Shown one piece after another: positions 5,948-30,406 of a DNA stretch of 34,611 nucleotides (position 1 is its first letter; every line of letters starts with the position of its first letter). This DNA comes from Sandaracinaceae bacterium (GTDB lineage Bacteria; Myxococcota_A; Polyangia; Polyangiales; Sandaracinaceae): contig JBGAQA010000071.1 in NCBI GenBank assembly GCA_044220955.1, positions 273 through 34,883 of the forward strand, given 5' to 3'. A program made the translations under genes and the position numbers. Under the pieces are notes generated by a model. The model had not been told where the DNA came from. It saw nothing but the letters and a program-made list of their open reading frames with translations, and made no database searches.

Positions 5948-8769
<2,822 letters not shown>

Positions 8770-8904
8770 GGACCGACCAATATAGCGGGATGCCGGCCGC
8801 ACGCTCCGATCTCTCGCGCGTCGCGGAAAGGGCGCGGCGCCCGCGCGGGCATCGCGCGGCGCGCCATCCGGGCGCGTGCGTGGGCGGGGACGTGCGACGT
8901 CGAG

Positions 8905-9714
8905 CTACGGACTCGTGACGGCTGGGCGCAGCTGCTCGGCGAAGAACGAGAGGACGCGATCGCGGGCTGCGCGGGTCGGGTGCCCTTCGCGGTCCACGAG
9001 GTGATCGGTGACCACGGAGTGCGCCGCGCGCGGGATCCCGTGCGGGTTGCCCGGCGCGGAGTCGATCTCGATCCCCTCGAACGCGGGACCGAGCTCATCT
9101 CTCAGGCGCGCGAAGCGCTCGCCCGGCACGAACCGGTCGCGTGTGAAGCGCATCCCGAGCACGCGCAGGCCCTCGGCGGCGCAGCGGCGCCGGATCGTCA
9201 CGAGCGCCTCGTCGCTCACGTGCAGGCCGCGCCGCTGCTCGCGCGTGACGCCCGACGGCAGAGAGGGCTGGCTCAGCACGGGCGCCATCATGGCCGGGTC
9301 CACCGCCATCGCGAGCGCGAAGTTCCCCGTGATGCACATACCGATCGCGCCGACGCCCGGCCCCCCGAGCTCGGCGTGCAGCTCCCGCGCGAGCGCGCGC
9401 AGCCAGTCCACGATCGGGCTCGAGCGCCGAGCCGCGAAGACGTGGAACTCGCGGCTCACGCAGGCGCGCGCGATCTGCGCCAGCTCGTAGCCCTTGGTCC
9501 GCGGGCGCCCGTCCTGCCCGAACATCGAGGGCATCAGCACCGTGAACCCGGCATCGGCGACGGAGTCGGCGAAGCGGGCGACGGACGGGGTGATGCCGGG
9601 GATCTCGTGCATCACGATCACGCCCGGTCCCGCGCCGCGCCGGTAGACGCGGTGCTCCATGCCGTCGTGCGCGAAGGGGCGGTGGGTCCAGCCGTCCAAG
9701 AGGGGCGTCGTCAC
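8905..9714 (-). CDS. Dienelactone hydrolase family protein, 269 aa
   Basis: C-terminal part of ORF 8905..10935. VIVMHEIPG, GAIGMCITG (Cys nucleophile), TRDRFVP (Asp), AHSV (His). GTG 9714. Confidence 0.88.
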   Translation of the reverse strand: MTTPLLDGWTHRPFAHDGMEHRVYRRGAGPGVIVMHEIPGITPSVARFADSVADAGFTVLMPSMFGQDGRPRTKGYELAQIARACVSREFHVFAARRSSPIVDWLRALARELHAELGGPGVGAIGMCITGNFALAMAVDPAMMAPVLSQPSLPSGVTREQRRGLHVSDEALVTIRRRCAAEGLRVLGMRFTRDRFVPGERFARLRDELGPAFEGIEIDSAPGNPHGIPRAAHSVVTDHLVDREGHPTRAARDRVLSFFAEQLRPAVTSP

Positions 9715-9737
9715 CGCGCGAGTGTACGCTGTGTGTC
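9715..9737. promoter_or_regulatory. Putative bidirectional leaderless promoter (23-bp intergenic gap)
   Basis: + strand TACGCT 9725-9730, 7 nt before GTG 9738; - strand TACACT 9726..9721, 6 nt before GTG 9714. The two hexamers share the TA at 9725-9726. Confidence 0.65.
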
Positions 9738-10352
9738 GTGGCGGCCCGTATCGCGATCGTGCTCGGCGCGCTCGGCGCGCTCTTCGGTGCGCTCTGGCTG
9801 GAGCTCCCCGTGGTGCGGGGCTGGATGCTGCCCGAGGCGAGCACGGCCTCGGGACTGCTCTGGGTGATCGGGCCGCCGCGCGCGCTGCGCTTCGGAGCCT
9901 GCGCCGTGCTCGCCGCACTGACGCTCCCGCTGCTCTTGCGACCGCTCGGGCGGCGGTGGGCCGCGGAGGACCAGCGGGCTCGGCCGGCGCCCGCCGTCGA
10001 GCGGCACGTCGGGCGGACGGCGCTGCTGATCCGGGGCGGGCTGCTCTTCGTGGTGTACGCCGTCTGCGGCGCTTTCTACTTCGTGTCGCACGGGGAGGTG
10101 CGGGACGGCTCCATCGCCTTCCATTCCGTGCTCGGGACGCGGGCGTACGGCTACGCGCAGATCGTGTCGCTCGAGCACCAGGCGCCCGAGGGCGGGCAGC
10201 CGGACCGCTACGCGATTCGATTCGACGACGAGCGCTGGGGCTACTTCGATGCCGACTGCGAGGGTGTCGACGATGGCGCGGCGCGCGCGATCGCTGCCCA
10301 CGTCGCGCGCCGCGCGGGCCAGGTCTGGCTCGAGACGAGCGGCAACCGATGA
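9738..10352 (+). CDS. Hypothetical membrane protein (about 3 TM segments plus a soluble C-terminal domain)
   Basis: Hydrophobic stretches IAIVLGALGALFGALWL, FGACAVLAALTLPLLL and GGLLFVVYAVCGAFYFV; codon bias. Confidence 0.7.
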   Translation: MAARIAIVLGALGALFGALWLELPVVRGWMLPEASTASGLLWVIGPPRALRFGACAVLAALTLPLLLRPLGRRWAAEDQRARPAPAVERHVGRTALLIRGGLLFVVYAVCGAFYFVSHGEVRDGSIAFHSVLGTRAYGYAQIVSLEHQAPEGGQPDRYAIRFDDERWGYFDADCEGVDDGAARAIAAHVARRAGQVWLETSGNR

Positions 10353-11899: not shown

Positions 11900-14662
11900 C
11901 TAGTGTGCGGCGCCCCAGCTCGCGCCCATGCCGGTCTCGACCAGCAACGGCACTCGCAGCTTCGCCGCGCGCTCCATCGTCTCGCGTACGAGCGTCGGTA
12001 GCACGTCGCGCTCGCTCTCGTGAACCTCGAGGACGAGCTCGTCGTGCACCGTCAGGATCATGCGGCTGCGCCGCTTGCCGGCGTCGAGCGCGGCCTCGAG
12101 GTCGACCATCGCGCGCTTGAGGATGTCGGCGGCGGTGCCCTGGATGGGGGTGTTGCGCGCGATGCGCTCGGCGGCCCAGCGCTCGGTGCGGTTGCGGCTC
12201 TCGAGGCCCGCGATCGCGCGCTTCCGGCCGGCCATCGTTCGCACGAAGCCGGTGCGGCGAGCGTCCTCGACCACGTCGTCGAGGTAGCGCGCGACGCCGG
12301 CGTACCGGTGGAAGAACGCCTGGATGTAGCGGCGCGCCTCCTGCGCATCGATGCCGAGGTTGCGCGCGAGGGCCGTCTCCGTCTGCCCGTAGATGACCGC
12401 GAAGTTCACGGTCTTGGCCTGCCCGCGCTGCTGCTTCGTCACCTGGTCCGGCGGCACCGCGAAGATCGCCGTCGCGGTGCGCACGTGCACGTCGGCGCCC
12501 ACGCCGAACGCGTCGACGAGCTCGGGGTCGCCGCTCAGGTGTGCCAGCAGGCGCAGCTCGATCTGGGAGTAGTCGGCCGAGAGGATGGAGAATCCGTCCG
12601 CGGCGATGAACGCGTCCCGGATGAGGCGCCCCTCCTCGGTACGGATCGGGATGTTCTGCAGGTTCGGCTCGCTCGACGAGAGGCGCCCGGTCGCGGCCAC
12701 GGCCTGGTTGAAGCGCGTGTGGACGCGGCCCGTGCGCGGATCGATCGCGGCCGGCAGCGCGTCGAGGTACGTGCTCTTCAGCTTCGTCAGCTGGCGCCAC
12801 TCGAGGATCACCTGGGGCAGCGGATGGAGCTCGGCGAGCTCCTCCAGCACCTCCGCGTCGGTCGAGCGTGCCGTCTTCGTGCGCTTCTTGGCGGGCAGAC
12901 CGAGCTCGTCGAAGAGGAGCGCCTCGAGCGCGCGCGGCGAGCCGACCTGCACCGGGTGGCCGACGATCTCCGCGCACTTCTGCTCGAGCCTCCCGATACG
13001 AACGTCGTACTCGCGGCTCGTGCGCGCGAGCGCCGCCGGCTCGACGCGCACGCCGACCTCCTCGATGTGCAAGAGCACGCGCGCGAGCGGTAGCTCGAGC
13101 TCGCGGTACACCGATCCGAGCAGGGTGTCGGCCTCGAGCGCCTCCGCCTCGGCGATCGCAGCGGGGATGAGCGCCCGGACCCGCGCGCAGCTCCAGCCCG
13201 CGACGCGCTCGACCTCCGCCTCCGACATGCGGCCGCGCGTCCCACGGGGACCCTTGGGCGTGACCTCGACCGCCGCGTCGAGCACGACGCCGACCTCGGC
13301 GCGCGCGACGTCCTCGATCGTGTGCGCGTGCTCGTCCGCGCGCAGCAGGTAGCTCGCGAGCATCGTGTCGACGTCACCCGGCCCGACCACCAGGTCGACG
13401 CCGTGGCGCCGCCAGATGAGCGCTTCGCGCTTTCCGTCGTGCACGAAGAGGGGCTTGCGCCGTCCGGCGATCGCCGCCGCGATCGCGCGCAGCGCGGCCT
13501 CGACTCCGAGCTGCGCGGGGCGCCCGAGGTAGACGTGCCCCAGCGGCACGTACGCGGCGCCCTCGCACCACGCGATCGCGACGCCGACCAGCGGAGAGCG
13601 GCGCGCGTCCTCCCCGTCGAGCGTGGTCGAGAGGGCCACGGCCGCGCTCGCCGTCGCCGCGCGCAGCACCGCGTCGAGCGACGCGGCGTCGAGGACGAGC
13701 TCCGGCGTGATCGAGGCGAGCGGCGCCGGCCTCGGCGCCCGCGGGATCGGGGCCTCGACAGGGCGCTGCGACGCGCCACCGTAGCGACGCTCGAGCTCGG
13801 TGAGCGGGCGGTCGAGCTCGAGCTCGCGGAAGATCGCTCGCAGCTTGGGCACGTCGGGCTCTCGGGGCACGAGCGTGTCGAGGTCGAGCACGACGGGCAC
13901 GTCCTCGCGTAGCGACACGAGCTGGCGGGACAGCTCGGCGAGCGCGCGGTTGTTCTCGAGCGTGGCGCGCAGCGCGGGCTTCTTCACCTCGCTCGCGCGC
14001 GCGAGGATCGTGTCGAGGTCCCCGTACTGCGACAGCAGCTCGACGGCGGTCTTGGGGCCGACCTTCGGGACGCCAGGGACGTTGTCCGAGCTGTCGCCGA
14101 CGAGCGAGAGGTAGTCGCGGACCTGCTCGGGTCGCACGCCGAGCTTCGCCACGGTCTCGTCGATGCCGTAGACCACCTCGCGCATCGCGTCGTGCATCAC
14201 GACGGGGCCGCCGACCAGCTGGAGCAAGTCCTTGTCTGCGCTCGCGATGACGACCAAGAGGTCCCGCCCGAGCGCATAGCGCACGACGGTCGCGATCACG
14301 TCGTCGGCCTCGAACCCCGGCGCCTCGAGACAAGCGAGGCCGTACGCCCTCGCGATCTCCTTCACCCGGATCGACTGGGGCGCCAGCTCGGGCGGACGCT
14401 CCTTCCGGGTCGCCTTGTAGTCGGGATAGAAGTCCTTTCGAAACGAACCCTCGGCCGAGTCGATCGCCACCGCGAAGTGGGTGGGCCGGCGATCTGCCAG
14501 GAGCTTCTGCAGCATCATCGTGACGCCGAGCACGGCGCCCGTCGGCTCGCCGCGGGTGCTCGTCAGCGGGGGCAACGCGTGAAACGCCCGGAAGACGTAC
14601 CCCGAAAGATCCAGGACGGTCAGGGTCCGCGGATCGCCCGGCGGGGGAAGCTCTGCCTTCAC
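11900..14662 (-). CDS. polA: DNA polymerase I
   Basis: 5'-3' exonuclease motifs (RAFHALP, YKATR, EADDVIAT, GDSSDNVPGVPKVGPKTA) and polymerase motifs TGRLSS..PNLQNIP, ADYSQIELR, AKTVNFAVIYG, TVHDELV. Confidence 0.98.
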   Translation of the reverse strand: MKAELPPPGDPRTLTVLDLSGYVFRAFHALPPLTSTRGEPTGAVLGVTMMLQKLLADRRPTHFAVAIDSAEGSFRKDFYPDYKATRKERPPELAPQSIRVKEIARAYGLACLEAPGFEADDVIATVVRYALGRDLLVVIASADKDLLQLVGGPVVMHDAMREVVYGIDETVAKLGVRPEQVRDYLSLVGDSSDNVPGVPKVGPKTAVELLSQYGDLDTILARASEVKKPALRATLENNRALAELSRQLVSLREDVPVVLDLDTLVPREPDVPKLRAIFRELELDRPLTELERRYGGASQRPVEAPIPRAPRPAPLASITPELVLDAASLDAVLRAATASAAVALSTTLDGEDARRSPLVGVAIAWCEGAAYVPLGHVYLGRPAQLGVEAALRAIAAAIAGRRKPLFVHDGKREALIWRRHGVDLVVGPGDVDTMLASYLLRADEHAHTIEDVARAEVGVVLDAAVEVTPKGPRGTRGRMSEAEVERVAGWSCARVRALIPAAIAEAEALEADTLLGSVYRELELPLARVLLHIEEVGVRVEPAALARTSREYDVRIGRLEQKCAEIVGHPVQVGSPRALEALLFDELGLPAKKRTKTARSTDAEVLEELAELHPLPQVILEWRQLTKLKSTYLDALPAAIDPRTGRVHTRFNQAVAATGRLSSSEPNLQNIPIRTEEGRLIRDAFIAADGFSILSADYSQIELRLLAHLSGDPELVDAFGVGADVHVRTATAIFAVPPDQVTKQQRGQAKTVNFAVIYGQTETALARNLGIDAQEARRYIQAFFHRYAGVARYLDDVVEDARRTGFVRTMAGRKRAIAGLESRNRTERWAAERIARNTPIQGTAADILKRAMVDLEAALDAGKRRSRMILTVHDELVLEVHESERDVLPTLVRETMERAAKLRVPLLVETGMGASWGAAH

Positions 14663-14746
14663 GCGGGGGTTTCTCGCCCGAGGGACCGGTCGAGGAGTAG
14701 CTGCGGAGTGCGTTTTCTCTTATCTTCGATCACGGGAGACTCTCCG

Positions 14747-16018
14747 GTGGCTCGACTCCGCGCGACGCGACGGAGCGCTCTCTTCTTCGTCGCGGCCCTC
14801 TTGATCGTCTCGCTCGCGGCGCAGGATGCGCTCTTCGCGTCGATCCGCGCCATCGCCCCGTCGGCGATCGCCGCCACGCCGCCGCCGGACCTCGGGGTGG
14901 CCATCTCGCTCGAGGACCCGGGCGGCCACGCCCTCGACCAGTTCCACGAGGCCCTGGGCCGCGCGGCCGCCTACCACGGGCAAGCGAGGGTGATCTGGTG
15001 GGGCGCGTCGCACACCGCGCCCGATCGCTACGTCGGGCTCGTGCGTCGAGCGCTGCAGGCCCGCTTCGGAGACGCGGGGCCCGGCTTCGTGGTGCCAGTG
15101 CGCCCCTTCGCGGGCTACGACACGAGCACCGCCCGGATCTCGTGGCACGGGGCTTGGCGCACGTTGCGCGGCGATCGCATGGCGGAGGGAGAGGCGTACG
15201 GCTTCGCGGGCTTCGCGGTCGAGTCGCTGATGGCCGGCGCGACGGGCGCACTCGACACGCGCGGTGCGCGCTGGGGCGAGAGGCCCGTGGGCTCGTACGA
15301 TGTCGCGTTCCTGCGGCAGCCGAACGGTGGCCGCTTCGAGGTCCGCATCGACGAACGGGCGGCCGCCGTCGTCGACACCCAGGGCGAGCTCGGCGCCGGC
15401 CACGCGCGCTTCCGCGTCCGGGACGCCGCACATCGAGTCGAGGTCCGAGTGCTCGACGACGCGCCAGTCCGACTCTTCGGCGTGTCCATGGAGCGGGATC
15501 GCTCCGGCGTCGTCGTCGACACCGTCGGCATTCCCGGGTCTCGCGCGCGCTCGCACCTGCGCTGGGATGACGCGACCTACCGCGCCGAGGTGCGCCGCCG
15601 GCGCCCCGACCTGGTGGTGCTCGCCTACGGGACGAACGAGAGCGAAGACACGAGCGTTCCCGCGCGTCGCTACGAGAGCGACCTCGCGCGCGTCGTGCGC
15701 CGCCTCCACCAGACCGTGCCCGGAGCCAGCTGCCTCCTCGTCGGCCCCTCCGACCGCCCCATCGCCAGCGGCCGCGAGGCGTGGTCTCCGAGGCCGCTGA
15801 CGCGCGAGGTGATCGCCGTGCAGCGACGGGTGGCGGCGAGCGCCGGCTGCGCGTTCTTCGACCTCTCCGCGTTCATGGGCGGCGAGATGTCGATGATGGA
15901 TTGGGTCGCGCACGACCCCCCCTTCGCGCTGCCCGACCACGTGCACTTCACGCCCGAGGGCCACGCTCGGCTCGCCGAGGTGATGACCGCCGCGCTGCTC
16001 GAGGGCTACGAACCGTAG
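14747..16018 (+). CDS. Exported SGNH/GDSL hydrolase or O-acetyltransferase-like protein, 423 aa
   Basis: N-terminal signal/TM; block I WGASHT, block III AYGTNE, block V DHVH (DxxH). GGGAG 8 nt before GTG 14747. Confidence 0.85.
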   Translation: MARLRATRRSALFFVAALLIVSLAAQDALFASIRAIAPSAIAATPPPDLGVAISLEDPGGHALDQFHEALGRAAAYHGQARVIWWGASHTAPDRYVGLVRRALQARFGDAGPGFVVPVRPFAGYDTSTARISWHGAWRTLRGDRMAEGEAYGFAGFAVESLMAGATGALDTRGARWGERPVGSYDVAFLRQPNGGRFEVRIDERAAAVVDTQGELGAGHARFRVRDAAHRVEVRVLDDAPVRLFGVSMERDRSGVVVDTVGIPGSRARSHLRWDDATYRAEVRRRRPDLVVLAYGTNESEDTSVPARRYESDLARVVRRLHQTVPGASCLLVGPSDRPIASGREAWSPRPLTREVIAVQRRVAASAGCAFFDLSAFMGGEMSMMDWVAHDPPFALPDHVHFTPEGHARLAEVMTAALLEGYEP

Positions 16019-16068: not shown

Positions 16069-16902
16069 TCAGTGGCCGACGTGCGCCGAGGCGGCGAGGC
16101 GGATCATCGCGTCGCGATCGAGATCGCCCGTGAACGCGTAGGTCAGGCCGCCCATCTGCATCATCGGCACGGTGTAGCCGTGAACCGTCCGGTAGTAGAG
16201 GTCGTGGCCCTGCATCCGGACGTGATCGGCCCCACGGAACGCGTCGGGCGGTGGCTCGAACACCATCACCGTCACCCGGTGTCCGTGCACCTGGTAGTAG
16301 AAAGCGGCCGCGTCCCGCTCGCGCACGTTGGAGAGCCGGGCGCCGACGAGCTCGACGTCGCTGCGGCCGAAGTCGACCGGCCGCGCCGGGAACTCGAGCT
16401 TGCGCTGGAACCACGTGGCCATCTGGGAGGGCGAGCCCTGCACTTCGGGCGGGTGCTCGCGCTCGTGGCGCCGCACGACGTCCTCGAACACCGGGACCGC
16501 CGCCGCTTGCAGCGCGACCGCATCCTGCGAGTCGTCGGTCTGCGTCGCGAAGCCGAGCGCCACCACGGCGGCGGCCGCCGCCGGCAGCGCGTAGCGCGCG
16601 AGCCGGGAGTCCTGGCGAACCGGCGGCCGAGCTGCCCCGCCTCTGATGCTCGCCTCGGGCGGCGAGGGACGCGGCGCGGCGTCGAGCGCCGTCAGCACGC
16701 GAAGCCGGAGGTGCTCGGGCGCCGTCACGCCCCCGAGCGCGGCCCTCGTCGCCCGCTTCATCGACTGCGCGAACATCGCGTGCTCGCGGCAGAACACGCA
16801 CCCCGCCAGGTGCTTCTCGAACTCGATCTGGGCCGAGCTGTCCAGCTCGCCGTCCACCAGCGCGTCGACGTGCCTCTTCACGACGCGACAGGAGGTGGTC
16901 AT
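16069..16902 (-). CDS. Zinc-binding (ZAS/zf-HC2) transmembrane anti-sigma factor, 277 aa
   Basis: C…LVDGEL…HLAGCVFC (HxxxCxxC), [17 protein letters not shown], extracytoplasmic domain. ATGA overlap with the sigma gene stop. Confidence 0.9.
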
Positions 16903-17567
16903 CCGGCGATCTCCCGCGCGCGGCGGTAGGCGTCGAGCGAGACCGTCTCGGCGCCGGCCGCCTGCTTCGTGGGATCGACGATGCCCATCTCGATCGCTTG
17001 CTCCACGAGGCGTCCCTGCATGTGCTTCCGCGCGCGGTGCAGGCGCGACATGACCGTGCCGATGGGGCAGCCCACGATGTCCGCGATCTCCTTGTACGAG
17101 AGCTCCTCGATGTCCGCCAAGACGATCATCAGGCGGTGCTCTTCGGAGAGCTCGTCGAGCGCCTTCTGGATCTCCTGCGACACGAGCGACCGCATCGCGG
17201 CGTCCTCGGGCTCCGTGAGCGCCCGCATCGCCGCGCGGCTCATCACGCCCTCGCCCACCGGCTCCGCGTCGTCGCCGTCGAGGACCTTCCGCTCGCGCGT
17301 GTTCCGACGGTACTTGTTGATGAACGTGTTGGTCAGGATCCGCAGGAGCCACGCCCTGAGGTTGGTCCCGGGCTCGAAGCGGTCGTAGAAGCGGTAGGCC
17401 TTCAGGAAGGCGTCCTGGACGAGGTCGTCGGCATCCGCGGCCGAGCGAGTCAGGCGCAGCGCAGCGCCGTACATCGAGTCGAGGTAGGGCAGCGCCAGCT
17501 GGGCGAACTCCCCCTGCTCGAGCCCTCCGCGGCCCCGCTCGCCACCCTCGTCGTCGTCTCGCGCCAT
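16899..17567 (-). CDS. ECF RNA polymerase sigma factor (SigR/SigH-like)
   Basis: Region 2 [40 protein letters not shown]; region 4 [33 protein letters not shown]. Confidence 0.95.
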
Positions 17568-17738: not shown

Positions 17739-18395
17739 TCAGGCGTCTTTCGCGGGGGGCTCCGGGTCCCGCCGCTTCTGCTGGGCCGTGACGAGCTTCT
17801 GCTCGAGGTCCTCGATGCGGGCGGTGAGGCGCTTGACCTCGTTCTGCAGGTTGTGGACGTGGCTGATGGCCACCCCGAGCACGCTGCGGATCCGGTCGTC
17901 GGCGAGGCGCTGCAGCTCGTCGAAGGCCTCCTTGGGGCTCAGGATCCGCCGGTCCGCCTTCGCCGGCTCGGCGCTCGGCTCGGCGACGGCCGGGGCGGGC
18001 TCGGGCGGCTCGGGCGCGCTCTCGTCCTCGCGCCGGGCGATCAGCTTGCCGACCGGTCCCTCGCGCAGGGTCGTCATGATCCGCTCGCCGCTCTGCTGGA
18101 TCAGCCCTCGCAACGTGGACATCGTGGGGGAGGTTCGGCGCGCCTCCTCGCCCGACTTCCGCTCCTCTTCGTAGACGATCTGGGCGAGCGTGACGTTGGT
18201 GAGGTCTTCCTTCGTCGTGTTGTCGATGATGGAGACGTCCTCGCCCCGCCGCACGTACTCGGCGATCTGGAGCAAGGTCACGTAGCGGCTGTCCCGCGTG
18301 TCGTAGAGCTTCCGGTTCGCGTAGCGCTTGATGAGGCGCGTCGCGCGACCGGGGTCCTTCTCGCGTCCGCGCTCGGGCTGCTGAGGGGTGCTCAC
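17739..18395 (-). CDS. PhaR-like regulator (PHB/PHA accumulation regulator N-terminal DNA-binding domain) with a C-terminal coiled coil
   Basis: IKRYANRKLYDTRDSRYVTL..I…VR.GE…IID..T.EDLT…L.QI; C-terminal LQNEVKRLTARIEDLEQKL. Confidence 0.88.
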   Translation of the reverse strand: MSTPQQPERGREKDPGRATRLIKRYANRKLYDTRDSRYVTLLQIAEYVRRGEDVSIIDNTTKEDLTNVTLAQIVYEEERKSGEEARRTSPTMSTLRGLIQQSGERIMTTLREGPVGKLIARREDESAPEPPEPAPAVAEPSAEPAKADRRILSPKEAFDELQRLADDRIRSVLGVAISHVHNLQNEVKRLTARIEDLEQKLVTAQQKRRDPEPPAKDA

Positions 18396-18468
18396 TGAGG
18401 ATCGCAGTGCCAGAACCGACGCGGCGCGTCAAGCGTGTGTCGACCCGGAACCGGTGCATACTCGGAGC

Positions 18469-19221
18469 GTGCGCGTCGAATCCTCGCCATCGGCTCGGCT
18501 CGCCCGCCGCTGGGCGAGGGTCGTCGAAGCGGCCCACGACCCGATCCTGGCGGTGGGCTACCTGCGCAGCGAGCTGGCGGCCCCGCCGGGCCTCGTGGCG
18601 GGCGCCCTCGACGTGGTCCTCGCGGACGCCGCGGCGCGCGACGGCGCCGCCCAGGGCCTGCTGGTGGCGCTGAGCGCGGCCCTGGCGCCCATGGAGATGG
18701 CGGAGGTCCGCGAGCGTATCGCCCAGGCGGCGACCGAGGGGGGCCACCTCGCGGTGGGCGAGATCCTCGGCGCGCGGGGCGCGGCGCAGGCGTGTGGGGA
18801 CCAGGAGCGAGAGCGCATCCCCGACTTCGGCCGCGGGCGCCCGCTGGCCCTGGGGGAGCGCAAGTCGCTGGCGCGGCGGCGCGACCGGCAGCTGCTCGCG
18901 CGGGTGATCCGCGATCCGCACCCTGACGTGATCCGCGTGCTGCTCGACAACCCCGCCCTCACCCAGGACGACGTGGTCCGCCTCGTCGCGCGCCGCCCGA
19001 TCCCGGCGGACGTGCTGCGCGAGGTCGCCGCGAGCGTGCGCTGGATCGCCCGCTGCCACGTGCGCGCCGCGCTCCTCAAGAACCCCTTCGCGCCGCTCGA
19101 CCTCGCGCTTCCGCTCTTGCCGCTGGCGACCTCGAACGAGCTCGCCGAGCTCGCGACCTCGCCGGAGCTCGCCGTCGCGCTGCGCTCGATCGCGGCGCGT
19201 GGGGTGCGCACCCTGCACTGA
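18469..19221 (+). CDS. Hypothetical helical-repeat protein (LRV/DUF2336-like)
   Basis: DPHPDVIRVLLDNPALT and VRAALLKNPFAP repeats. GTG 18469 chosen because CATACT lies 6 nt upstream and it avoids overlap with the divergent gene. Confidence 0.72.
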   Translation: MRVESSPSARLARRWARVVEAAHDPILAVGYLRSELAAPPGLVAGALDVVLADAAARDGAAQGLLVALSAALAPMEMAEVRERIAQAATEGGHLAVGEILGARGAAQACGDQERERIPDFGRGRPLALGERKSLARRRDRQLLARVIRDPHPDVIRVLLDNPALTQDDVVRLVARRPIPADVLREVAASVRWIARCHVRAALLKNPFAPLDLALPLLPLATSNELAELATSPELAVALRSIAARGVRTLH

Positions 19222-19253: not shown

Positions 19254-19279
19254 GGCCCGCAGCCGGGCGGCTGCGGGCC
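19254..19279 (-). terminator. Intrinsic terminator hairpin between convergent genes
   Basis: GGCCCGCAGCC-GGGC-GGCTGCGGGCC, a perfect 11-bp stem, followed on the minus strand by TTCGTCGTTCGT. Confidence 0.75.
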
Positions 19280-19309
19280 CCGTCGCGATCGGGCGCGCTC
19301 GGGCGCGTT

Positions 19310-20971
19310 CTAGGGGCCCGCCGGCACCTGCGTGACGTGGATGCCGTTCGTGACCATCGTCCCGGTCCGATCGATCCACCAGGATGCGACGAACGACTGG
19401 TCGCCGGCCGTGTTGAGCTCCTGCTCGACCCAGAAGCCGCTGTGCTGGCCCATGTCGAGCACGGCGTGCGTCCAGGCGCCCGCCGCGGACCGGCGCGCGA
19501 TCATCGTGCGCTCGGTGGTGGAGTCCTGGTAGGCCACCCGGACCTCGCCTCCGACGACGACCACCGAGCTGTCGTCGCCGACGATGTGCCGCCCGTCGGT
19601 GTACGCCATGGTGCCGTCGCTCGTGCTTCCGTCGTCCACGACCTCGCGCGTGATCGCGCCAGCCACGATGCGCGCGTAGCGCAGGACCTCTTCGGCGCCG
19701 TCGACGTACGTCACGTGCCAGGTGTCGGCTGCGTCGACGAAGATCGAGGCTCCCTGGCCGGAGTCACCCGTGCTCGGATCGGAGCGGCCGTAGCCGTCGA
19801 TCAGGAAGGGCGTGCCCCAGGTCGTGCCCGTCGCCGACACGCCGTAGAGGTTGCCCTCGGTGCGGTCGTAGTAGACGAGCGCCAGCCCCGCCGAGGTGCG
19901 CGCCAGGCGGGTGTAGAGGCCGTGTGCGGGGGTGAGATCCTCGACGTAGTCCGCGGCGAGGGCGGCGGTGCAGGTGCCGGCGACGCAGGCCTGCGTCGCG
20001 GAGCACGCCGGGGCGCACGTCCCGGTCGGCATGACGCAGCTGCCGCTCTCGAGGCAGCGCTGCCCCATCCCGCAGAGGTTGGGGCGGCAGGGGCTCGCCG
20101 CGTCGCCGATGCGGCTGATCGTCCAGTCGGCGGCGGCCATCGGAGCCGCGCTGCTCGCGACCGCGACGCGCACCTGGCTGTGCACGGCGCCCGTCGTCGC
20201 GTCGAGCTCGTAGCCGAGGTACGCGATCGCAGGCGCGCCCGAGGCCGTAAGCACGAGCGACGAGTAGCGGCCCGCGTCCCCCGTGTCGTCGACGGTCTGC
20301 ACGCGCCAGTCGCCCGGCAGCCCGATCGCCAGCCGAAGCGCGCCGTGCGTCGCGTCGTAATACGACACGAAGAGCTGCGTGCCGCTCGACGCGATCGAGG
20401 TCCAGAGGCCGACGTTGTCGCCGGGCGCCGCGACGCCGCCGCGCCACCCGCTCGGCGCTGCCGTGATGGGCGTGGCCGGAGCGCCATCGGCGATGTCCCA
20501 GTCGATCATGCCCAGCTCGCCGCCGGGGATCGTCGCGACCACCATGTCGCCGTAGTTCGTCGACGGCGGGTTGCCCGGGCTGTAGCCCGAGAGGAACTGG
20601 TCGCCTGCCGACGTGATCACGAAGTCGAGGTCGGTCGCGAGATACCCCGGGTTGAGCGGGGGACGCTCCATGCAGCGGCCACACGTGACGTGGCAGCTCG
20701 CGTCCATCATGATCATCGCCGCCGGGCACGTGAAGCCCGGCATGCAGAGGTCGTTCACGTTGTAGTCGACGCACATCTGCGTCGACTCGCAGCACTGCTG
20801 CCCCATGGGCGAACCCGGCGGCATCGCAGCCACGCACTCGTCGTTGCAGTGCACGCCCGGCGAGTCGGGCCTGACCCCCGAGTCGCCCGTCGGCCCGCTT
20901 CCGTCCGAGCAGCTACAGCCCATCGCCGCGCTGCTCAGGACGAGCAGCGCGATCACCCAAAGCGCGCGCAT
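19310..20971 (-). CDS. Lipoprotein with Cys-rich segments and about 7 beta-propeller-like repeats, 553 aa
   Basis: True start MRALWVIALLVLSSAAMG-CSC at 20971 (TGATG overlap with the upstream stop); repeats of G-x-x-(T/S)-S-(I/L)…(Y)YD…G-x-L. Confidence 0.85.
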   Translation of the reverse strand: MRALWVIALLVLSSAAMGCSCSDGSGPTGDSGVRPDSPGVHCNDECVAAMPPGSPMGQQCCESTQMCVDYNVNDLCMPGFTCPAAMIMMDASCHVTCGRCMERPPLNPGYLATDLDFVITSAGDQFLSGYSPGNPPSTNYGDMVVATIPGGELGMIDWDIADGAPATPITAAPSGWRGGVAAPGDNVGLWTSIASSGTQLFVSYYDATHGALRLAIGLPGDWRVQTVDDTGDAGRYSSLVLTASGAPAIAYLGYELDATTGAVHSQVRVAVASSAAPMAAADWTISRIGDAASPCRPNLCGMGQRCLESGSCVMPTGTCAPACSATQACVAGTCTAALAADYVEDLTPAHGLYTRLARTSAGLALVYYDRTEGNLYGVSATGTTWGTPFLIDGYGRSDPSTGDSGQGASIFVDAADTWHVTYVDGAEEVLRYARIVAGAITREVVDDGSTSDGTMAYTDGRHIVGDDSSVVVVGGEVRVAYQDSTTERTMIARRSAAGAWTHAVLDMGQHSGFWVEQELNTAGDQSFVASWWIDRTGTMVTNGIHVTQVPAGP

Positions 20972-23532
20972 CAGACCTTCTCCTTGCGGCCGGCGCTCGC
21001 GCGGCGGCGCCGCGCGACGAAGAGCCCCAGCGCCAGCGCGCCGAGCCCGACGCCCATCCCCTCGTGACCCCCCTCGGCGCCCGTGGCGCGGCAGCCGCAG
21101 CCGCTCCCGCTCGCCGGGTTCGGTAGGCCTCGGATCAGTGCCTCGCGCGCCGTGCCGACGTTGCCGACCTCGTCGCGCGCCTCGACCTCGACGACCAAGC
21201 GCTCCTGCGCCAGCGCGGCGGCGTCGAGCGCCACCTCGTCCTGCGTCGACCACGGGCTCCACGCGCCGCCGTCCACGCGGAAGCGGTAGTCGAGGTCGCC
21301 CTGGCTGATGATGTCGTCGCCGGTCGCGACCATACCGTTGGGGCTGCGCGAGAGGCTGACGTTCGGCGCGAGCGTGTCGACGACGATCGTCGCCATCGCC
21401 GGCGTCGCGTCGACGCTGCGAGGCGCGCCCACGATGCGGCTCCGGGCCTCGATCTGGTGCCGCGCCTGGAGCAGCAGCACGTCGTCGTCGATCTGGATGC
21501 GCTGGTCCTGCGTCCAGCGCGACCAGGGGCCCTGGTCGATGCGGTACTGGTACTCGACGCGCTCGCTCGCGTCGGTGCCCTCGCTCGCGAAGTGCAGCCA
21601 GAGCGTGTTCTGGCTCTCGCCCCAGTGCTCGACCACCATGCTCTCCGGGGAGAGCACGAGATCGGAGAGCTCGAGAGAGGTGTCGACCGAGCGCGTCTCC
21701 GGCGCGAGCGAGAGGTTGGCCCAGATGGACAGGAAGTCGTCGCCGCCGCTCGAGACGCCCAGGATGCCCTCCGGCGGGATGTCGAGGTTGAAGCCCATGA
21801 TGGCCGGCAGCGCGATGGGCGAGATGCCGCTCGTGAACATCCCGGCGAACATCTGGATGACCGTCTCGAGCGTCGAGGCCAGCATCGCGGGCGACTCCGA
21901 CAGGAGCTCGGAGTTGGTCACGACGGAGTTCGTCGGCGTGACGCCGATGATCTCCGGCGTGATCATGCCGCCGGCGACCGTCAGGTTCATCTCGATGACG
22001 AGGTCGGTCTGGTAGGTCATGAAGCGCACGTAGCGCTCCGTGCTCCACACGTAGAAGTCGATCATCGCGTGCGGGAGCGTGATCGAGAGCAGCGGTGAGC
22101 TCGAGTCGGTCCCGATGTCGAACGTCGGCGGGAGCTGGGGACGCACGGAGATCGCCAGCGCCGCGTTCGTGTCGGGGAAGGTGAGCGCTCCGACGGAGCG
22201 GACCAGGGCGGAGACGAGGCCCGTCGAGAGCTGCTGCGAGAGCCGGGTGCCCGTCCCGATGCACAGCATGCCGCTGTCGAACATGCCGTAGCCGGCATAG
22301 TTCAAGTAGTCCTCGGCGATGCCGATGCCCAGGTGCGCTGGGGTCGTCGTGCCGGGGATCACGTTGCCCTCGAACGCGGGCGCCTGCGCGATCACCGGCG
22401 GGAAGGGCGTCGGTGGATCGATCCGCGGCACGCACGAGTTGTGGCCGGGCGACGTGGTGAACATCCGGTCCATCGACATGAAGCCGCCGACCATGTCGAC
22501 CGTCATGCCGTTGTTCGTCGCGATTCCGTCGCCGCCCGCCGCGAGCACGAGCTGGATGGGCGCGTGGGTTCCCGGCGAGAAGCCGCCGAGGAACTGCCCG
22601 CCGAGGTCGCCGCGGCCGTCCATGCCGAGGAGCATGGGCACGCAGGTGTCGCCGTGCGTGGGGCCGTAGCGGCAGACCGTGGTCGGGTCGGTCGTCGGGC
22701 CGTCCGGGAACGTGCCGGTGGGGCAGGTCCCGCCCGCGCCTACGGTGGTGCAGAGGTTGTCGCCGATCGCACCGTTCAGCAGGCCCGAGATCTGGCCCGC
22801 CAGCTGGCCGATCACGAGGTTCTTGATGAAGTCGAGGTTGAGCAGCCCGCACGCGCCGAGGAACCCACCGCTGATCGACAGGTCCGCGGACTCGACGTCC
22901 TCACCCGAGGTGAGCACCACGCTCTGCACGACGAGCTCCGTGTAGCCGTCGCGCGCCGGGTGTCCGGTGATGTTGCGGAGCAAGAGGGTCGCCGTGACGC
23001 CGACGAAGTCGCGCGAGCCGCGCGTGGTGTCGAGGCCGATGTCGCAGGTGCCCGGCCACGAGCCGTTCGTGAAGGTGGTGATGTCGCAGCCGGGCGTGCC
23101 CGGGACGCACCGGCCGTGGCGGCTGTGGAGGATGGCGCGGACGTGCACGACCAGCGAGTTCGGCGGCGTCGGGGTGATGTCGACGCTCTCGATGTCGATG
23201 TGGGCCGAGCAGTGGTCGTCGTCGCAGATGGTCACGCTGATGCCCGCGGACACCGTCATCGTGTGGACCGGGAAGTCGAGCCCCGCTCCCAGCACCGTGG
23301 TGATGATCGGTGTGATGTTCGACTCGAGGAAGTCGATGCCGCCCGAGGTGAGGCGGACCTGCGCGGAGTTCGGGATCCGCTGCGCGACCGGGAACGCGCC
23401 GGGGATGGGCGAGATGCCACATCCGGCACAGCCCGAGCAGCCCCCGCCGCCGCACGCGAAGACCAGCATGACGAGCGCCGATGCGACGATCGGCTTCCAA
23501 GTACGTCCCCAGAACCGAGCCAAGCGATGCAT
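20971..23532 (-). CDS. BPI/LBP/CETP-like (TULIP) lipid-binding surface protein with lipobox, two Ig-like domains and a MYXO-CTERM sorting signal, 853 aa
   Basis: GGAGG 5 nt before ATG 23532; LVFA-C lipobox; GCGC…hydrophobic…RRRR C-terminus; several colinear BPI-like motifs (see findings). The CDS itself is near certain; the fold is inferred. Confidence 0.8.
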   Translation of the reverse strand: [853 protein letters not shown]

Positions 23533-23591
23533 CAGCGCCTCCACGTCCACGGCGCACGCGTACGTCTCGCGTGCCGGCCGCCGCAGCCCGG

Positions 23592-23621
23592 ATTCTACGC
23601 GCGCCGAGATCCCGAGAGCAA
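23592..23621 (-). promoter_or_regulatory. Putative sigma70 promoter of the TULIP/propeller operon
   Basis: TTGCTC (23621..23616), 18 nt, TAGAAT (23597..23592). The predicted 5' UTR contains a 7-bp hairpin (23554-23574). Confidence 0.55.
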
Positions 23622-23683: not shown

Positions 23684-25895
<2,212 letters not shown>

Positions 25896-25985
25896 CGCGC
25901 GCGGCTTAGCACGGGCGGACGAGCCCAGTTCACCCTGGCCGAGCATCGCCGGGCGAGAAGATCCGCCCGTCGTCGGGACGGCCGC

Positions 25986-27767
25986 TCAGACCGCGCAGCG
26001 GCCGGACTGGCACGTCGCGCCGCCGCAGCAGTCGGTGTCGTTCGCGCACGACGAGCCGACGCCCTGGCACTGACAGCGACCCATCGTGCACGTCATGGTG
26101 CCGCAGCAGTCGTCGTCGCGCTGGCAAGGCGACATGCTCTGCTGGCAGCAGACGGTCATCGAGCTGCCGGCGTCGGGGGCGAGGCACTCGAGGCCCTCGC
26201 AGCAGTCGGGTCGTCCCGTGCAAGCGGTCGTGGCGCTCCCGGGTCGGCGGCAGTGGTCGACGACCTGGCACGCGCCGGCGACGCAGCCGAGCGAGCCGGT
26301 GTGCCCCGCGGGATCGGTGCCCGTCGCGCAGCACTCGGCGTCGCGGAAGCAGGTGTCGTCGACGCCGCGGCACGCGCACATGTTGTCGGTGCACGTCATC
26401 TCGCCGCAGCAGTCGGCGGGCGACTGGCAGGCGCCGCCGCTGCCCGTGCAGCACTGCAGCGGGCGGTCGGAGACCGTCGAGTCCGAGCTCACGCCGCAGG
26501 TGAAGCCGGCGCAGCACTCGGCGTTCGTCGTGCACGACTGGCCCTGCGGCATGCAGCTCGCCATCGGGTCGGGCCGGCACATGAACGTCTGGCACGTGAG
26601 GCCGTCGGCGCACTCGCTCGAGTCCAGGCAGAACGAGCCCTCCCGACCCGCCTGGCACATGCCGTCCCGACACATCATCAGGCCGCAGCAGTCGAGCGAG
26701 TTCGTGCAGGGCTGATCGGCGCCGACGCAGCAGCGCGGGATGAGCGGTGCCGGGCGGCAGACCGAGCCGTTGCAGCAGGTCTGACCCGGGAGGAGCCCAC
26801 CCAGCACGCAGCTCAGGCTCGGGCCCTGACACGTCGTGCACGAGCCGAACTGGCAGTGCTGCGCGCCGTCGCAGCTCGGCGCGCCGGTGTCACAGCACAT
26901 CTGCATGTCGTGGCCGCAGTCGCTCGGCGTCATCACGCACGTGTTGCTGCCGTGGTCGCACATCAAGCCGGCATCGCAGGTGCTGCGAGGGCCGCAGGGC
27001 TGATCCATGCCGCCGGTGTCGGTCGGGTCGCTGCACGTGCCGCCGAGGCAGACGAGGCCACCCTCGCAGTTGCCGGTGCCGCTGGGCGAGACGCCGTCCT
27101 CCGCGCAGCACGGGCCGTCGATGCGTCCGCAGCGCATGGTCGGATCCGGCGCCGTCTCGCAGTCGCCGCTCATCGGATTGCAGACGAGCGAGCTCGACAC
27201 GCACGACGTCATGCCGTCGCAGCAGCGACCGCCGGACTCGCCACAGCCCTCGCACATGCCCGTCGTCGAGTTGCAGACGAGGCCGGAGCGGCAGGTGAAC
27301 CCGGCGCAGCACGTCCCGCCGGCACCGCCACATCCGCTCATCCCCGGCAGGTCCCCCATGTCGGGCGAGAGGCAGACGCCGCCGGAGCAGACCAGGCCGC
27401 TGCAGCAGTCGCCCGACCCGGTGCAGGTCGAGCTGCGCCCTGCGCAGCACACGCCGCTCGTGCACGTGAGGCCGGTACAGCAGTCGGCCGACGTCGCGCA
27501 GCGCGTGCTGCTGTTGGCCTGCAGACAGCAGGTGCCACGGGCGCAGCGCAGGCCGAGCTCACAGGTGCTCCCGGCGCAGCACATCTGGCCGAGCGGACCG
27601 CAGGGCACGTCGTTCAGCGGCACGTTCGCGTCGGTGCGAACTCCCGTGTCGAATCCGGGCCCGACGCCGGAGTCGCGCTGGGAGCTCGCCGGGCGGGCGC
27701 AGCCGGGGGCGAGCGCGAGGAGCAGGGTCGTGGCGAGCGCCAAGGCAAGGCGGTGCTGCGCGTGCAT
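25986..27767 (-). CDS. Very Cys-rich lipoprotein built from tandem knottin-like modules, 593 aa
   Basis: Signal LLLALAPG-C; 17 modules of 4-6 Cys (about 99 Cys by hand count). Confidence 0.85.
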   Translation of the reverse strand: MHAQHRLALALATTLLLALAPGCARPASSQRDSGVGPGFDTGVRTDANVPLNDVPCGPLGQMCCAGSTCELGLRCARGTCCLQANSSTRCATSADCCTGLTCTSGVCCAGRSSTCTGSGDCCSGLVCSGGVCLSPDMGDLPGMSGCGGAGGTCCAGFTCRSGLVCNSTTGMCEGCGESGGRCCDGMTSCVSSSLVCNPMSGDCETAPDPTMRCGRIDGPCCAEDGVSPSGTGNCEGGLVCLGGTCSDPTDTGGMDQPCGPRSTCDAGLMCDHGSNTCVMTPSDCGHDMQMCCDTGAPSCDGAQHCQFGSCTTCQGPSLSCVLGGLLPGQTCCNGSVCRPAPLIPRCCVGADQPCTNSLDCCGLMMCRDGMCQAGREGSFCLDSSECADGLTCQTFMCRPDPMASCMPQGQSCTTNAECCAGFTCGVSSDSTVSDRPLQCCTGSGGACQSPADCCGEMTCTDNMCACRGVDDTCFRDAECCATGTDPAGHTGSLGCVAGACQVVDHCRRPGSATTACTGRPDCCEGLECLAPDAGSSMTVCCQQSMSPCQRDDDCCGTMTCTMGRCQCQGVGSSCANDTDCCGGATCQSGRCAV

Positions 27768-28747: not shown

Positions 28748-30406
<1,659 letters not shown>

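What the first reader, a model, noticed from the sequence alone, without database searches (positions are those of the whole stretch)
19254..23621. Self-contained two-gene operon pairing the TULIP-like protein with a 7-bladed propeller lipoprotein: candidate new surface lipid-capture system
Seen: promoter TTGCTC-N18-TAGAAT, a UTR hairpin (23554-23574), GGAGG, gene 1, a TGATG stop/start overlap at 20969-20973, gene 2, then an 11-bp terminator. Gene 2 has about 7 repeats (e.g. VGLWTSIASSGTQLFVSYYD, AGRYSSLVLTASGAPAIAY, HGLYTRLARTSAGLALVYYD, SGQGASIFVDAADTWHVTYVD, VGDDSSVVVVGGEVRVAYQD) plus two Cys-rich inserts. Inference: translational coupling suggests a stoichiometric complex, for example a lectin-like or receptor propeller plus a lipid carrier, loosely analogous to LBP and its partner.
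Basis: partly seen in the sequence, partly recalled or inferred. Interest (0 to 1): 0.8.

Follow-up and report, generated by a model that had tools for sequence, protein, structure and literature searches.

The report
Split myxobacterial lipid-tube surface polyprotein
In most relatives these two genes are a single gene whose product carries a surface-sorting tag and a second export signal in its middle, so it is likely cut into a tube predicted to have a lipid-binding fold and a propeller-shaped cap, which are predicted to bind each other and likely handle lipids at the cell surface; this bacterium carries a split copy.

Summary
Gene 1 (853 aa) has a lipobox, a predicted BPI/LBP/CETP-like double-TULIP, two FnIII domains and a MYXO-CTERM; gene 2 (553 aa) is a predicted lipoprotein with a seven-bladed propeller. 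98 of 119 close homologues are single ORFs of about 1,400 aa holding both; 66 of 200 sampled Myxococcota genomes carry the family, 62 as one long ORF. 185 of 192 fusions keep an internal MYXO-CTERM followed directly by a second signal peptide with a lipobox Cys (23 of 1,920 control windows): likely a polyprotein cut by myxosortase and signal peptidase II. Fission happened at least twice at this junction. Co-folding places the propeller on the tip of the C-terminal barrel (0.81, best control 0.00). Four unrelated ORFs of this genome share the junction type. Lipid binding, surface location and cleavage are inferred. Precedents: Bdellovibrio TipA/TipB, and MXAN_5598 with an internal MYXO-CTERM. 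New variant of known kinds.

The parts
23592..23621 (-). sigma70-type promoter-like site (TTGCTC-N18-TAGAAT)
   Evidence: sequence; same pattern upstream of 42 of 67 homologous loci vs 92 of 1,340 shuffles; not found by the consensus scanner
23554..23574 (-). 5' UTR hairpin, 7 bp, weak
   Evidence: -11.0 kcal/mol; no shuffle control run
23538..23542 (-). ribosome-binding site GGAGG of gene 1
   Evidence: GGAGG also precedes the start in most relatives printed there
20971..23532 (-). gene 1, 853 aa (P0001): first half of the ancestral polyprotein
23452..23532 (-). gene 1 N-terminal lipoprotein-type signal peptide, Cys27
   Evidence: sequence; rule-based lipobox in 212 of 232 homologues with intact N-termini; Cys27 at least 90% conserved
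21700..23376 (-). predicted double-TULIP (BPI/LBP/CETP-like), residues 53-611
   Evidence: AlphaFold2 mean pLDDT 75; Foldseek BPI E 1.2e-16; VIA Z 15.0 LBP, 14.8 BPI, 12.8 CETP with rmsd 3.8 over 420 residues
22024..22065 (-). conserved hairpin (residues 490-503) at the tip of the C-terminal barrel, predicted main contact with the propeller
   Evidence: D492, Y494, R500, R503 at least 89% conserved
21130..21699 (-). two FnIII/Ig-like domains, residues 612-801 (predicted stalk)
   Evidence: Z up to 10.1, rmsd 2.1 over 94 residues to receptor FnIII domains
21001..21108 (-). MYXO-CTERM sorting signal (GCGC, transmembrane helix, Arg cluster), residues 809-844
   Evidence: TIGR03901 23.7 bits, cut-off 20; myxosortase core NF040914 over cut-off in this genome
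20969..20985 (-). fission junction: AAGGAG ribosome site (Lys-Glu codons) and TGATG stop/start overlap
   Evidence: the fused same-genus locus L011 already has AAGGAG in frame at this place
19310..20971 (-). gene 2, 553 aa (P0002): second half of the ancestral polyprotein
20915..20971 (-). gene 2 lipoprotein-type signal peptide, Cys19 (equals the internal signal of fused homologues)
   Evidence: sequence
20672..20848 (-). Cys-rich domain, residues 42-100 (10 Cys), missing in some homologues
   Evidence: homologues aligning only from residue 105
19322..20653 (-). predicted seven-bladed beta-propeller, residues 107-550
   Evidence: mean pLDDT 91.4; VIA Z 32.0 CylK, 30.3 BP39L lectin, 28.5 PLL lectin, 27.7 Vgb lyase
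19970..20089 (-). Cys-rich insert between blades 3 and 4, residues 295-334 (8 Cys)
   Evidence: weak match to MXAN_6577-like Cys-rich family, E 0.13
19254..19279 (.). 11-bp G+C hairpin, likely terminator, possibly shared with the convergent gene
   Evidence: hairpins at the same place in L031 and L033; not called by the scanner

Best explanation
The two genes are the split form of a gene that is one open reading frame in most relatives, and they are predicted to encode a lipid-anchored double-TULIP tube and a lipid-anchored propeller cap that likely bind each other on the cell surface, where the tube likely takes up or hands over lipids. Steps. (1, shown) In fused homologues an internal MYXO-CTERM is followed at once by a second signal peptide; the Arg cluster of the tag doubles as that signal's basic n-region. 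(2, inferred, about 0.8) The precursor is threaded as an inner-membrane hairpin; Lgt and signal peptidase II release the propeller as a lipoprotein, myxosortase cuts the tag and leaves the TULIP protein lipidated at its C-terminal Cys as well as at Cys27. (3, shown by trees) The window's lineage turned the junction into TGATG behind an AAGGAG that already existed as Lys-Glu codons, so translational coupling likely replaced cleavage as the way to keep the two at 1:1. (4, predicted, about 0.85) The propeller's top face caps the distal tip of the conserved C-terminal barrel; the variable N-terminal barrel stays free. (5, inferred from TraA, about 0.7) The folded complex is exported by type II secretion. 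(6, inferred from fold, about 0.75 for lipid binding, about 0.45 for capture of lipid from outside, such as prey or neighbour membranes) The free barrel likely extracts lipid and the capped end likely docks the tube to the cell's own outer membrane or gates it.
For: Fusion: 98 of 119 listed homologues of gene 1 also align to gene 2; 66 of 200 phylum genomes match at E <= 1e-20, 62 in one open frame of 1,213 codons or more, 61 of these with a propeller match in the same frame (my tabulation). Junction: 191 of 192 fusions have Cys + hydrophobic helix + basic cluster, 185 of 192 also a second hydrophobic stretch ending in Cys, with Gly at -1 in 165 of 185; 23 of 1,920 control windows pass. The uncharged stretch before that Cys (median 17, range 11-24) equals that of free gene-2 signal peptides (11-22). 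Only 2 of 66 fused locus rows have an in-frame start codon with a ribosome site there. Split forms are nested in fused ones; one origin is rejected (p-AU 3e-29). Four other ORFs of this genome have the same kind of junction, one releasing a TraB-like barrel/OmpA protein that cannot work while tied to an inner-membrane helix. Complex: ipSAE 0.81, best of 3 controls 0.00, runs agree in at least 57% of contacts, partner pLDDT at least 86; this mark was reached by 116 of 157 solved complexes and 2 of 215 mismatched pairs; the TULIP side of the interface is more conserved than the rest of that barrel (p 0.009). Myxosortase present; MrtX cleavage and T2SS export shown for TraA (PMC11980579); a bacterial double-TULIP holds lipids (TipA).
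Against: No experiment on any member. No Pfam match to LBP/BPI/CETP families and no sequence match in the PDB. The propeller side of the predicted interface is not more conserved than the rest (p 0.77). The co-folding used my own paired alignments, for which the tool's calibration holds only roughly, and left out the FnIII and Cys-rich N-terminal parts. The junction parser was written after I had read the sequences, the 192 proteins are related and partly redundant, and only 133 of 185 fit a relaxed four-residue lipobox pattern. Asp at +2 in 70 of 185 internal lipoboxes is the E. coli inner-membrane retention signal, though a different rule was reported for M. xanthus (PMC3222651). Stand-alone copies without a following propeller exist (L013, L014, L015, L076). 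Nothing ties the family to predation.
Confidence: 0.55

Rival explanations
1. Same processed complex, but it stays in the periplasm and shuttles or buffers the cell's own envelope lipids between inner and outer membrane.
For: Single copy here and near-universal in several families (23 of 24, 12 of 15, 20 of 21) with a conserved sigma70-type promoter and housekeeping neighbours, as expected of a maintenance function; Asp at +2 in 70 of 185 internal lipoboxes; myxosortase mutants have outer-membrane permeability defects (PMC11980579).
Against: The two MYXO-CTERM proteins tested are surface-exported (PMC11980579); many Cys suggest an exposed protein; no match in many complete genomes of the phylum (for example 0 of 11 in genus g20); the N-terminal barrel is the most variable part (0.36 vs 0.51).
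Confidence: 0.2
2. The complex is an adhesin or contact receptor: the TULIP is a rigid spacer or recognition rod and the propeller binds glycans or proteins; lipid cargo is incidental.
For: Best Foldseek matches of the propeller are PLL-family lectins (E about 3e-10); most MYXO-CTERM proteins are predicted adhesins or hydrolases (PMC11980579); variable N-terminal barrel loops.
Against: Lectins are tied with non-lectin propellers in the wide search (CylK ranks first); identity 9-13%; the propeller top face is predicted to be occupied; both TULIP barrels are kept across the phylum and most long strands alternate polar and apolar faces (rough proxy).
Confidence: 0.15
3. Fused homologues are not cleaved: the two hydrophobic segments form a permanent inner-membrane hairpin with both domains in the periplasm, and the split form is a tolerated accident.
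For: Cleavage of an internal lipoprotein signal was not found described in the papers searched; 37 of 185 second segments are 19 residues or longer.
Against: An invariant Cys preceded by Gly/Ala ends the second segment; 54 of 185 segments are 15 residues or shorter; repeated fission at exactly this place yields normal signal peptides; a beta-barrel follows the same junction type in two other ORFs.
Confidence: 0.1

Closest known systems
Bdellovibrio bacteriovorus TipA/TipB (bd2538/bd2539; bioRxiv 10.1101/2025.09.09.675085; read: parts 1-3 of 7, Discussion, passages)
   Same: Predatory-type bacterium, BPI-like double-TULIP encoded in an overlapping two-gene operon with a partner that binds it; TipA holds lipids and binds bilayers.
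   Different: TipB is a small C2-like beta-sandwich that binds and opens the N-terminal barrel, and TipA is a secreted end-to-end dimer; here the partner is a seven-bladed propeller lipoprotein predicted to cap the C-terminal barrel tip, the TULIP has FnIII domains and two predicted lipid anchors, and the pair is usually one ORF. The paper's main text has no hit for 'myxo' or 'propeller'.
MXAN_5598, internal MYXO-CTERM protein of Myxococcus xanthus (PMC11980579; read: abstract, introduction, part 3 of 7, first part of Discussion, passages, supplement text part 1; Table S1 itself not visible)
   Same: MYXO-CTERM in the middle of an ORF; proposed to arise by gene fusion and to be processed.
   Different: Called atypical and rare there; adhesin plus barrel/OmpA; the parts read do not mention a second signal peptide or how the C-terminal half is released, and no test was reported. 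Here the junction is kept across many families, carries a lipobox, and is the likely ancestral state.
TraA/TraB (PMC3325183 and PMC6372800; passages read)
   Same: MYXO-CTERM surface protein with an overlapping, translationally coupled partner gene for an envelope protein.
   Different: No shared domains; TraB is a barrel/OmpA protein; no sequence relation found.
Eukaryotic BPI/LBP/CETP family
   Same: Two tubular barrels joined by a central sheet.
   Different: 11-15% identity, no Pfam match, longer, membrane-tethered, disulfide-rich, with a propeller partner.
PLL/PHL/BP39L seven-bladed lectins; CylK propeller
   Same: Seven-bladed propeller fold.
   Different: 9-13% identity; sugar sites not tested; Cys-rich additions and lipoprotein anchor.
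Bradyrhizobium FbcH cytochrome b-c1 precursor (recalled, from no call; searches did not return it); Haloferax ArtA substrate with internal sorting signal (title only, reference list)
   Same: Prokaryotic precursors cut at an internal signal into two products.
   Different: As recalled, one internal cut; here a sortase tag and a lipoprotein signal lie back to back and would need two different enzymes.

Membership tests
Double-TULIP (BPI/LBP/CETP-like) fold | two helix-plus-sheet tubular barrels joined by a central sheet | tested here: met
   model; whole-domain alignments 53-611 to BPI, LBP, CETP
Pfam LBP_BPI_CETP / LBP_BPI_CETP_C | sequence match to the family HMMs | tested here: not met
   0 Pfam families at E <= 0.5; Atlas rank-2 cluster carries PF02886 in 57% of members, score 0.92, a lead only
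Double-TULIP (BPI/LBP/CETP-like) fold | hydrophobic lumen that binds lipid | not testable with these tools
   no coordinates or assay; strand alternation is only a rough proxy
MYXO-CTERM proteins | Cys motif + transmembrane helix + Arg cluster near the C-terminus, with N-terminal signal peptide | tested here: met
   TIGR03901 23.7 bits over cut-off 20 at 809-844 of 853; internal hits over cut-off in fused P0024 and P0293, none at E <= 0.01 in fused P0064 and P0233
MYXO-CTERM proteins | cognate myxosortase in the genome | tested here: met
   NF040914 127.6 bits, cut-off 100, at G000:C230
MYXO-CTERM proteins | cleavage by myxosortase and surface export | not testable with these tools
   shown for TraA and MXAN_4924 only
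Bacterial lipoproteins (signal peptidase II substrates) | basic n-region, hydrophobic stretch, small residue then Cys | tested here: met
   gene 2 Cys19 and gene 1 Cys27; homologue statistics; own rules, no SignalP
Bacterial lipoproteins (signal peptidase II substrates) | diacylglyceryl modification and cleavage | not testable with these tools
   needs mass spectrometry or labelling
TipA/TipB system | double-TULIP with an operonic binding partner | tested here: met
TipA/TipB system | partner is a small C2-like beta-sandwich binding the N-terminal barrel | tested here: not met
   partner is a 553-aa propeller predicted on the C-terminal barrel
TipA/TipB system | homodimer through an N-terminal hairpin | not tested
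PLL-type seven-bladed lectins | seven-bladed propeller | tested here: met
PLL-type seven-bladed lectins | sequence relation and inter-blade sugar sites | tested here: inconclusive
   no sequence match; sites not examined
MXAN_5598-type internal MYXO-CTERM fusions | MYXO-CTERM in mid-ORF | tested here: met
   in fused homologues, 191 of 192; not in the window's own split gene
MXAN_5598-type internal MYXO-CTERM fusions | C-terminal half is a barrel/OmpA protein | tested here: not met
   C-terminal half is a propeller lipoprotein; met instead by the unrelated ORF P0312 of this genome

The most novel reading that the evidence does not exclude
Myxobacteria use a general two-enzyme polyprotein linker, a sortase tag whose Arg tail doubles as the start of a second signal peptide, to make two separately anchored envelope proteins from one ORF; its oldest and most widespread user is a doubly lipid-anchored TULIP tube capped by a propeller, exported as a pre-assembled complex that pulls lipids from prey or neighbouring cells.
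Probability: 0.35. Interest if true: 0.85.

Novelty: new variant of a known kind. Interest (0 to 1): 0.68.

Why it matters
If the cleavage is real, bacteria process a lipoprotein signal that lies more than 800 residues inside a chain, back to back with a sortase tag, which makes true two-product polyproteins; annotation pipelines treat these as single hypothetical proteins and miss the second lipoprotein. The linker recurs in at least five unrelated gene contexts (this family plus four ORFs of this genome), so it is more than the one atypical case noted in print. It is directly testable because myxosortase cleavage has been reproduced in E. coli. The cargo is a widespread, unstudied bacterial double-TULIP with a new kind of partner; prokaryotic TULIPs are few in structural work, and how predatory myxobacteria take up prey lipids is open.

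Tried and rejected
Sterol carrier: rejected as a general role. On the same 200 genomes the family and oxidosqualene cyclase (TIGR03463, E <= 1e-100) do not track: f18 12/15 vs 0/15, f26 20/21 vs 1/21, genus g20 0/11 vs 4/11 (kin are not independent). Internal translation start in fused genes: 2 of 66 fused rows have a start codon with a ribosome site and 13 have no in-frame start in the window tested (rows include duplicates). Programmed frameshift joining the split genes: gene 2's frame is open for 627 codons upstream, but the -1 frame is normally stop-poor at this G+C content, its length varies among relatives and gene 2 has its own ribosome site and signal peptide. Assembly artefact: rejected. 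Pfam: nothing for either protein. PDB by sequence: nothing for gene 1; weak beta-lactamase hits for gene 2 (E 0.011, 72 residues) taken as chance. Atlas: gene 2 hits under 0.9. Co-transcription: one 168-nt contig of an RNA run spans the junction without differences (X19 record 1); contigs cannot show a transcript and DNA carry-over is not excluded, so not used. Named relatives across the whole phylum were not obtained: the broad alignments had no stretch conserved enough for the locus scan, which therefore reached mainly Polyangiales; whether Myxococcus xanthus has a member was not determined. Literature searches that returned nothing relevant on this family or an internal lipobox: (open-licence PMC and bioRxiv only; Sah et al. 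2020 not held; bioRxiv supplements closed; Table S1 of PMC11980579 not visible and may show more on internal tags). Earlier scan findings: none relevant.
Full report
Observation. The two ORFs are 23532..20971 (853 aa, P0001) and 20971..19310 (553 aa, P0002) on the minus strand, overlapping as TGATG at 20973-20969. The consensus scanner calls neither promoter nor terminator, but the promoter pattern lies upstream of 42 of 67 homologous loci against 92 of 1,340 shuffles. A second ribosome site, AAGGAG at 20985-20980, is written by the Lys-Glu codons near the end of gene 1. Contigs of other studies cover the junction without a listed difference, and of the 22 listed substitutions of one strain that I tested, 6 change an amino acid.

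Anatomy. Neither protein has a Pfam match. P0001 has a MYXO-CTERM at 809-844 over the curated cut-off and a lipobox-like Cys27, found by my rule in 212 of 232 homologues with intact N-termini. Its AlphaFold2 model (pLDDT 75) aligns over residues 53-611 with BPI, LBP and CETP (Foldseek E 1e-16 to 1e-13; VIA Z 12.8-15.0, CETP rmsd 3.8 over 420 residues); 612-801 are two FnIII-like domains. P0002 has a lipoprotein-type signal (Cys19), a 10-Cys domain (42-100), a seven-bladed propeller (pLDDT 91) and an 8-Cys insert. Its fold neighbours are lectins and non-lectins alike, so the fold does not give the ligand.

The pair is usually one gene. Of 119 listed homologues of gene 1 other than the window's own (120 of 149 hits were listed), 98 also align to gene 2 in the same chain. 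Among 40 related genomes 33 match; four genomes of the same genus have short open frames of 867-897 codons and most others frames near 1,400. In a 200-genome sample of the phylum, 66 match at E <= 1e-20, 62 of them in one open frame of at least 1,213 codons, and 61 of those have a propeller match in that frame; the exceptions are one split locus, one stand-alone gene and two contig-edge cases (my tabulation). The profile search of the 50% library gave 700 proteins at E <= 1e-30, of which 150 were listed. After removing 8 duplicates, 4 loci cut by contig ends and partial matches, 67 loci are 56 fused, 6 split, 5 stand-alone (one stand-alone lies at a contig end and says little). Named records from the locus scan are mostly Sandaracinaceae and other Polyangiales.

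The junction. In 192 fetched proteins that carry both the Ig part and the propeller (106 from the 90% searches, 86 from the 50% library), 191 have Cys motif, hydrophobic helix and basic cluster, and 185 go on to a second hydrophobic stretch ending in Cys, with Gly at -1 in 165 and Ala in 16; 23 of 1,920 control windows from the same proteins pass. The parser was written after viewing the sequences and the proteins are related, so this shows retention, not a probability. The uncharged stretch before the Cys has median 17 (11-24), like free gene-2 signal peptides; 133 of 185 fit a relaxed lipobox; the loop between the helices has median net charge +6. In the shortest junctions the Arg cluster of the tag is directly the n-region of the second signal. 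Internal re-initiation does not explain it (2 of 66 rows). The simplest reading is an inner-membrane hairpin cut on both sides, by myxosortase (present here and over cut-off in 160 of 201 genomes) and by Lgt/signal peptidase II. This step is inferred.

Direction. In a 42-row tree (39 loci that I chose plus 3 proteins) the five split loci of this genus form one branch (99% SH-aLRT) nested among fused relatives, including a fused genome of the same genus (L011); the split locus L012 lies in another family beside a fused sister; one origin is rejected (p-AU 3e-29; I had seen the tree first). L011 already has AAGGAG in frame at the junction, and L012 also uses TGATG. So fission likely replaced cleavage with translational coupling. 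In a distant family (L098, L103) a TULIP without Ig domains or tag is directly followed by a separate propeller gene, so the partnership outlasts the architecture.

The linker is general. Of 66 MYXO-CTERM-like hits in this genome, five have tails over 190 residues; four of these continue with a second signal peptide and a sensible protein, one looks spurious. They are an Ig-repeat adhesin plus TraB-like barrel/OmpA (P0312), a subtilase plus a lipobox and an MXAN_6640-family metalloprotease with a second, terminal tag (P0313), a tandem of two Cys-rich tagged proteins (P0314), and a protein followed by a likely barrel (P0315; barrel judged by eye). Guo, Haft and Wall describe one such ORF, MXAN_5598, as atypical and propose processing of its N-terminal part; the parts I read do not mention a second signal peptide.

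The complex. Co-folding P0001 53-608 with P0002 106-548, using alignments of the same 120 fused homologues, scored 0.81 against a best control of 0.00; the runs agree in at least 57% of contacts and partner pLDDT is at least 86; the mark was reached by 116 of 157 solved complexes and 2 of 215 mismatched pairs, counts that hold only roughly for my own alignments. I found no solved relative by sequence, so recall of a like complex is unlikely but not excluded. The TULIP side is more conserved than the rest of that barrel (p 0.009); the propeller side is not (p 0.77); the N-terminal barrel is the most variable region.

Function. By fold and by TipA, which holds lipids and binds bilayers, lipid binding is likely; by TraA, surface export is likely. 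I commit to a surface-tethered lipid capture or transfer unit with a propeller cap (0.55 for the whole chain), against a periplasmic lipid shuttle (0.2), an adhesin without lipid cargo (0.15) and an uncleaved membrane protein (0.1). A sterol-specific role is not supported. Neighbours give little: in the order the gene commonly follows mtaP, pfkB and an unknown Cys-rich lipoprotein (31, 36 and 34 of 76 loci, many with short flanks); here those three lie on another contig and the pair follows enolase.

Novelty. A bacterial double-TULIP with an operonic partner and an internal MYXO-CTERM each have one precedent. The propeller-capped, doubly anchored TULIP family and the tag-plus-lipoprotein-signal polyprotein junction were not found in the searches run, which cover open-licence PMC and bioRxiv only. 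Verdict: new variant of known kinds, interest 0.68.

Noticed in passing
L085:1912-8427 (+) = G000:C263: 2,171-codon ORF: Ig-repeat adhesin, internal MYXO-CTERM-like segment, second signal peptide, TraB-like barrel/OmpA half; architecture like MXAN_5598.
   Followed up: partly
L086:2186-5266 (-) = G000:C111: Subtilase S8, internal MYXO-CTERM (over cut-off), lipobox, MXAN_6640-family metalloprotease and a second terminal tag: two surface proteases in one ORF.
   Followed up: partly
L087:2021-6052 (+) = G000:C77 and L088:1989-3728 (-) = G000:C251: Two more ORFs with an internal tag and second signal peptide: a tandem of two Cys-rich tagged proteins, and an unknown protein followed by a likely beta-barrel; no Pfam or NCBIfam match.
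   Followed up: partly
L104:3481-6388 (-) = G000:C40; L016:12243-13313 (-): mtaP-pfkB-unknown Cys-rich lipoprotein (about 330 aa, no Pfam) usually sits just upstream of the polyprotein gene in Polyangiales; a possible third partner.
   Followed up: partly
L090, L091, L092, L093, L096, L097, L099, L100: A more distant family of about 560-670 codons: TULIP-like domain with ordinary signal peptide and terminal MYXO-CTERM-like end, no propeller, several paralogues per genome in families that lack the polyprotein.
   Followed up: partly
L098:528-4393 (-), L103:670-4430 (-), L094: Family f29: TULIP lipoprotein without Ig domains or tag directly followed by a separate propeller lipoprotein gene; L094 has a propeller gene followed by a weakly TULIP-like ORF.
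   Followed up: partly
L014, L015, L013, L076: Stand-alone gene-1 copies ending at the MYXO-CTERM with no propeller gene behind; the genomes of L014 and L015 also hold a fused copy.
   Followed up: partly
L052, L079, L068: Copies interrupted inside the TULIP region (stop or frame break); assembly error or decay not resolved.
   Followed up: no
L079:10038-10382 (-) and 23 other loci: A small protein of about 90 aa (motif read as RAHGYxDGYM, no Pfam) is often encoded convergently just downstream of fused genes; here it lies on another contig.
   Followed up: partly
window 18388-19221 (+), 25986-27767 (-), 3635-4834 (+), 6193-9867 (+): ORFs with no Pfam match at E <= 0.001; the first converges on the operon's hairpin, the last may be a shadow frame.
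   Followed up: no
window 23684-24997, 25044-25946, 17739-18395, 16899-17567, 11900-14662 (all -), 14192-16018 (+), 28748-30406 (-): Ordinary neighbours: enolase, pyrroline-5-carboxylate reductase, PHA regulator domain protein, ECF-type sigma factor, DNA polymerase I, GDSL lipase, FG-GAP propeller protein.
   Followed up: yes
G000:C11:74185-76068 (-): Oxidosqualene-cyclase-like gene, 728 bits, under the family cut-off of 851.
   Followed up: no
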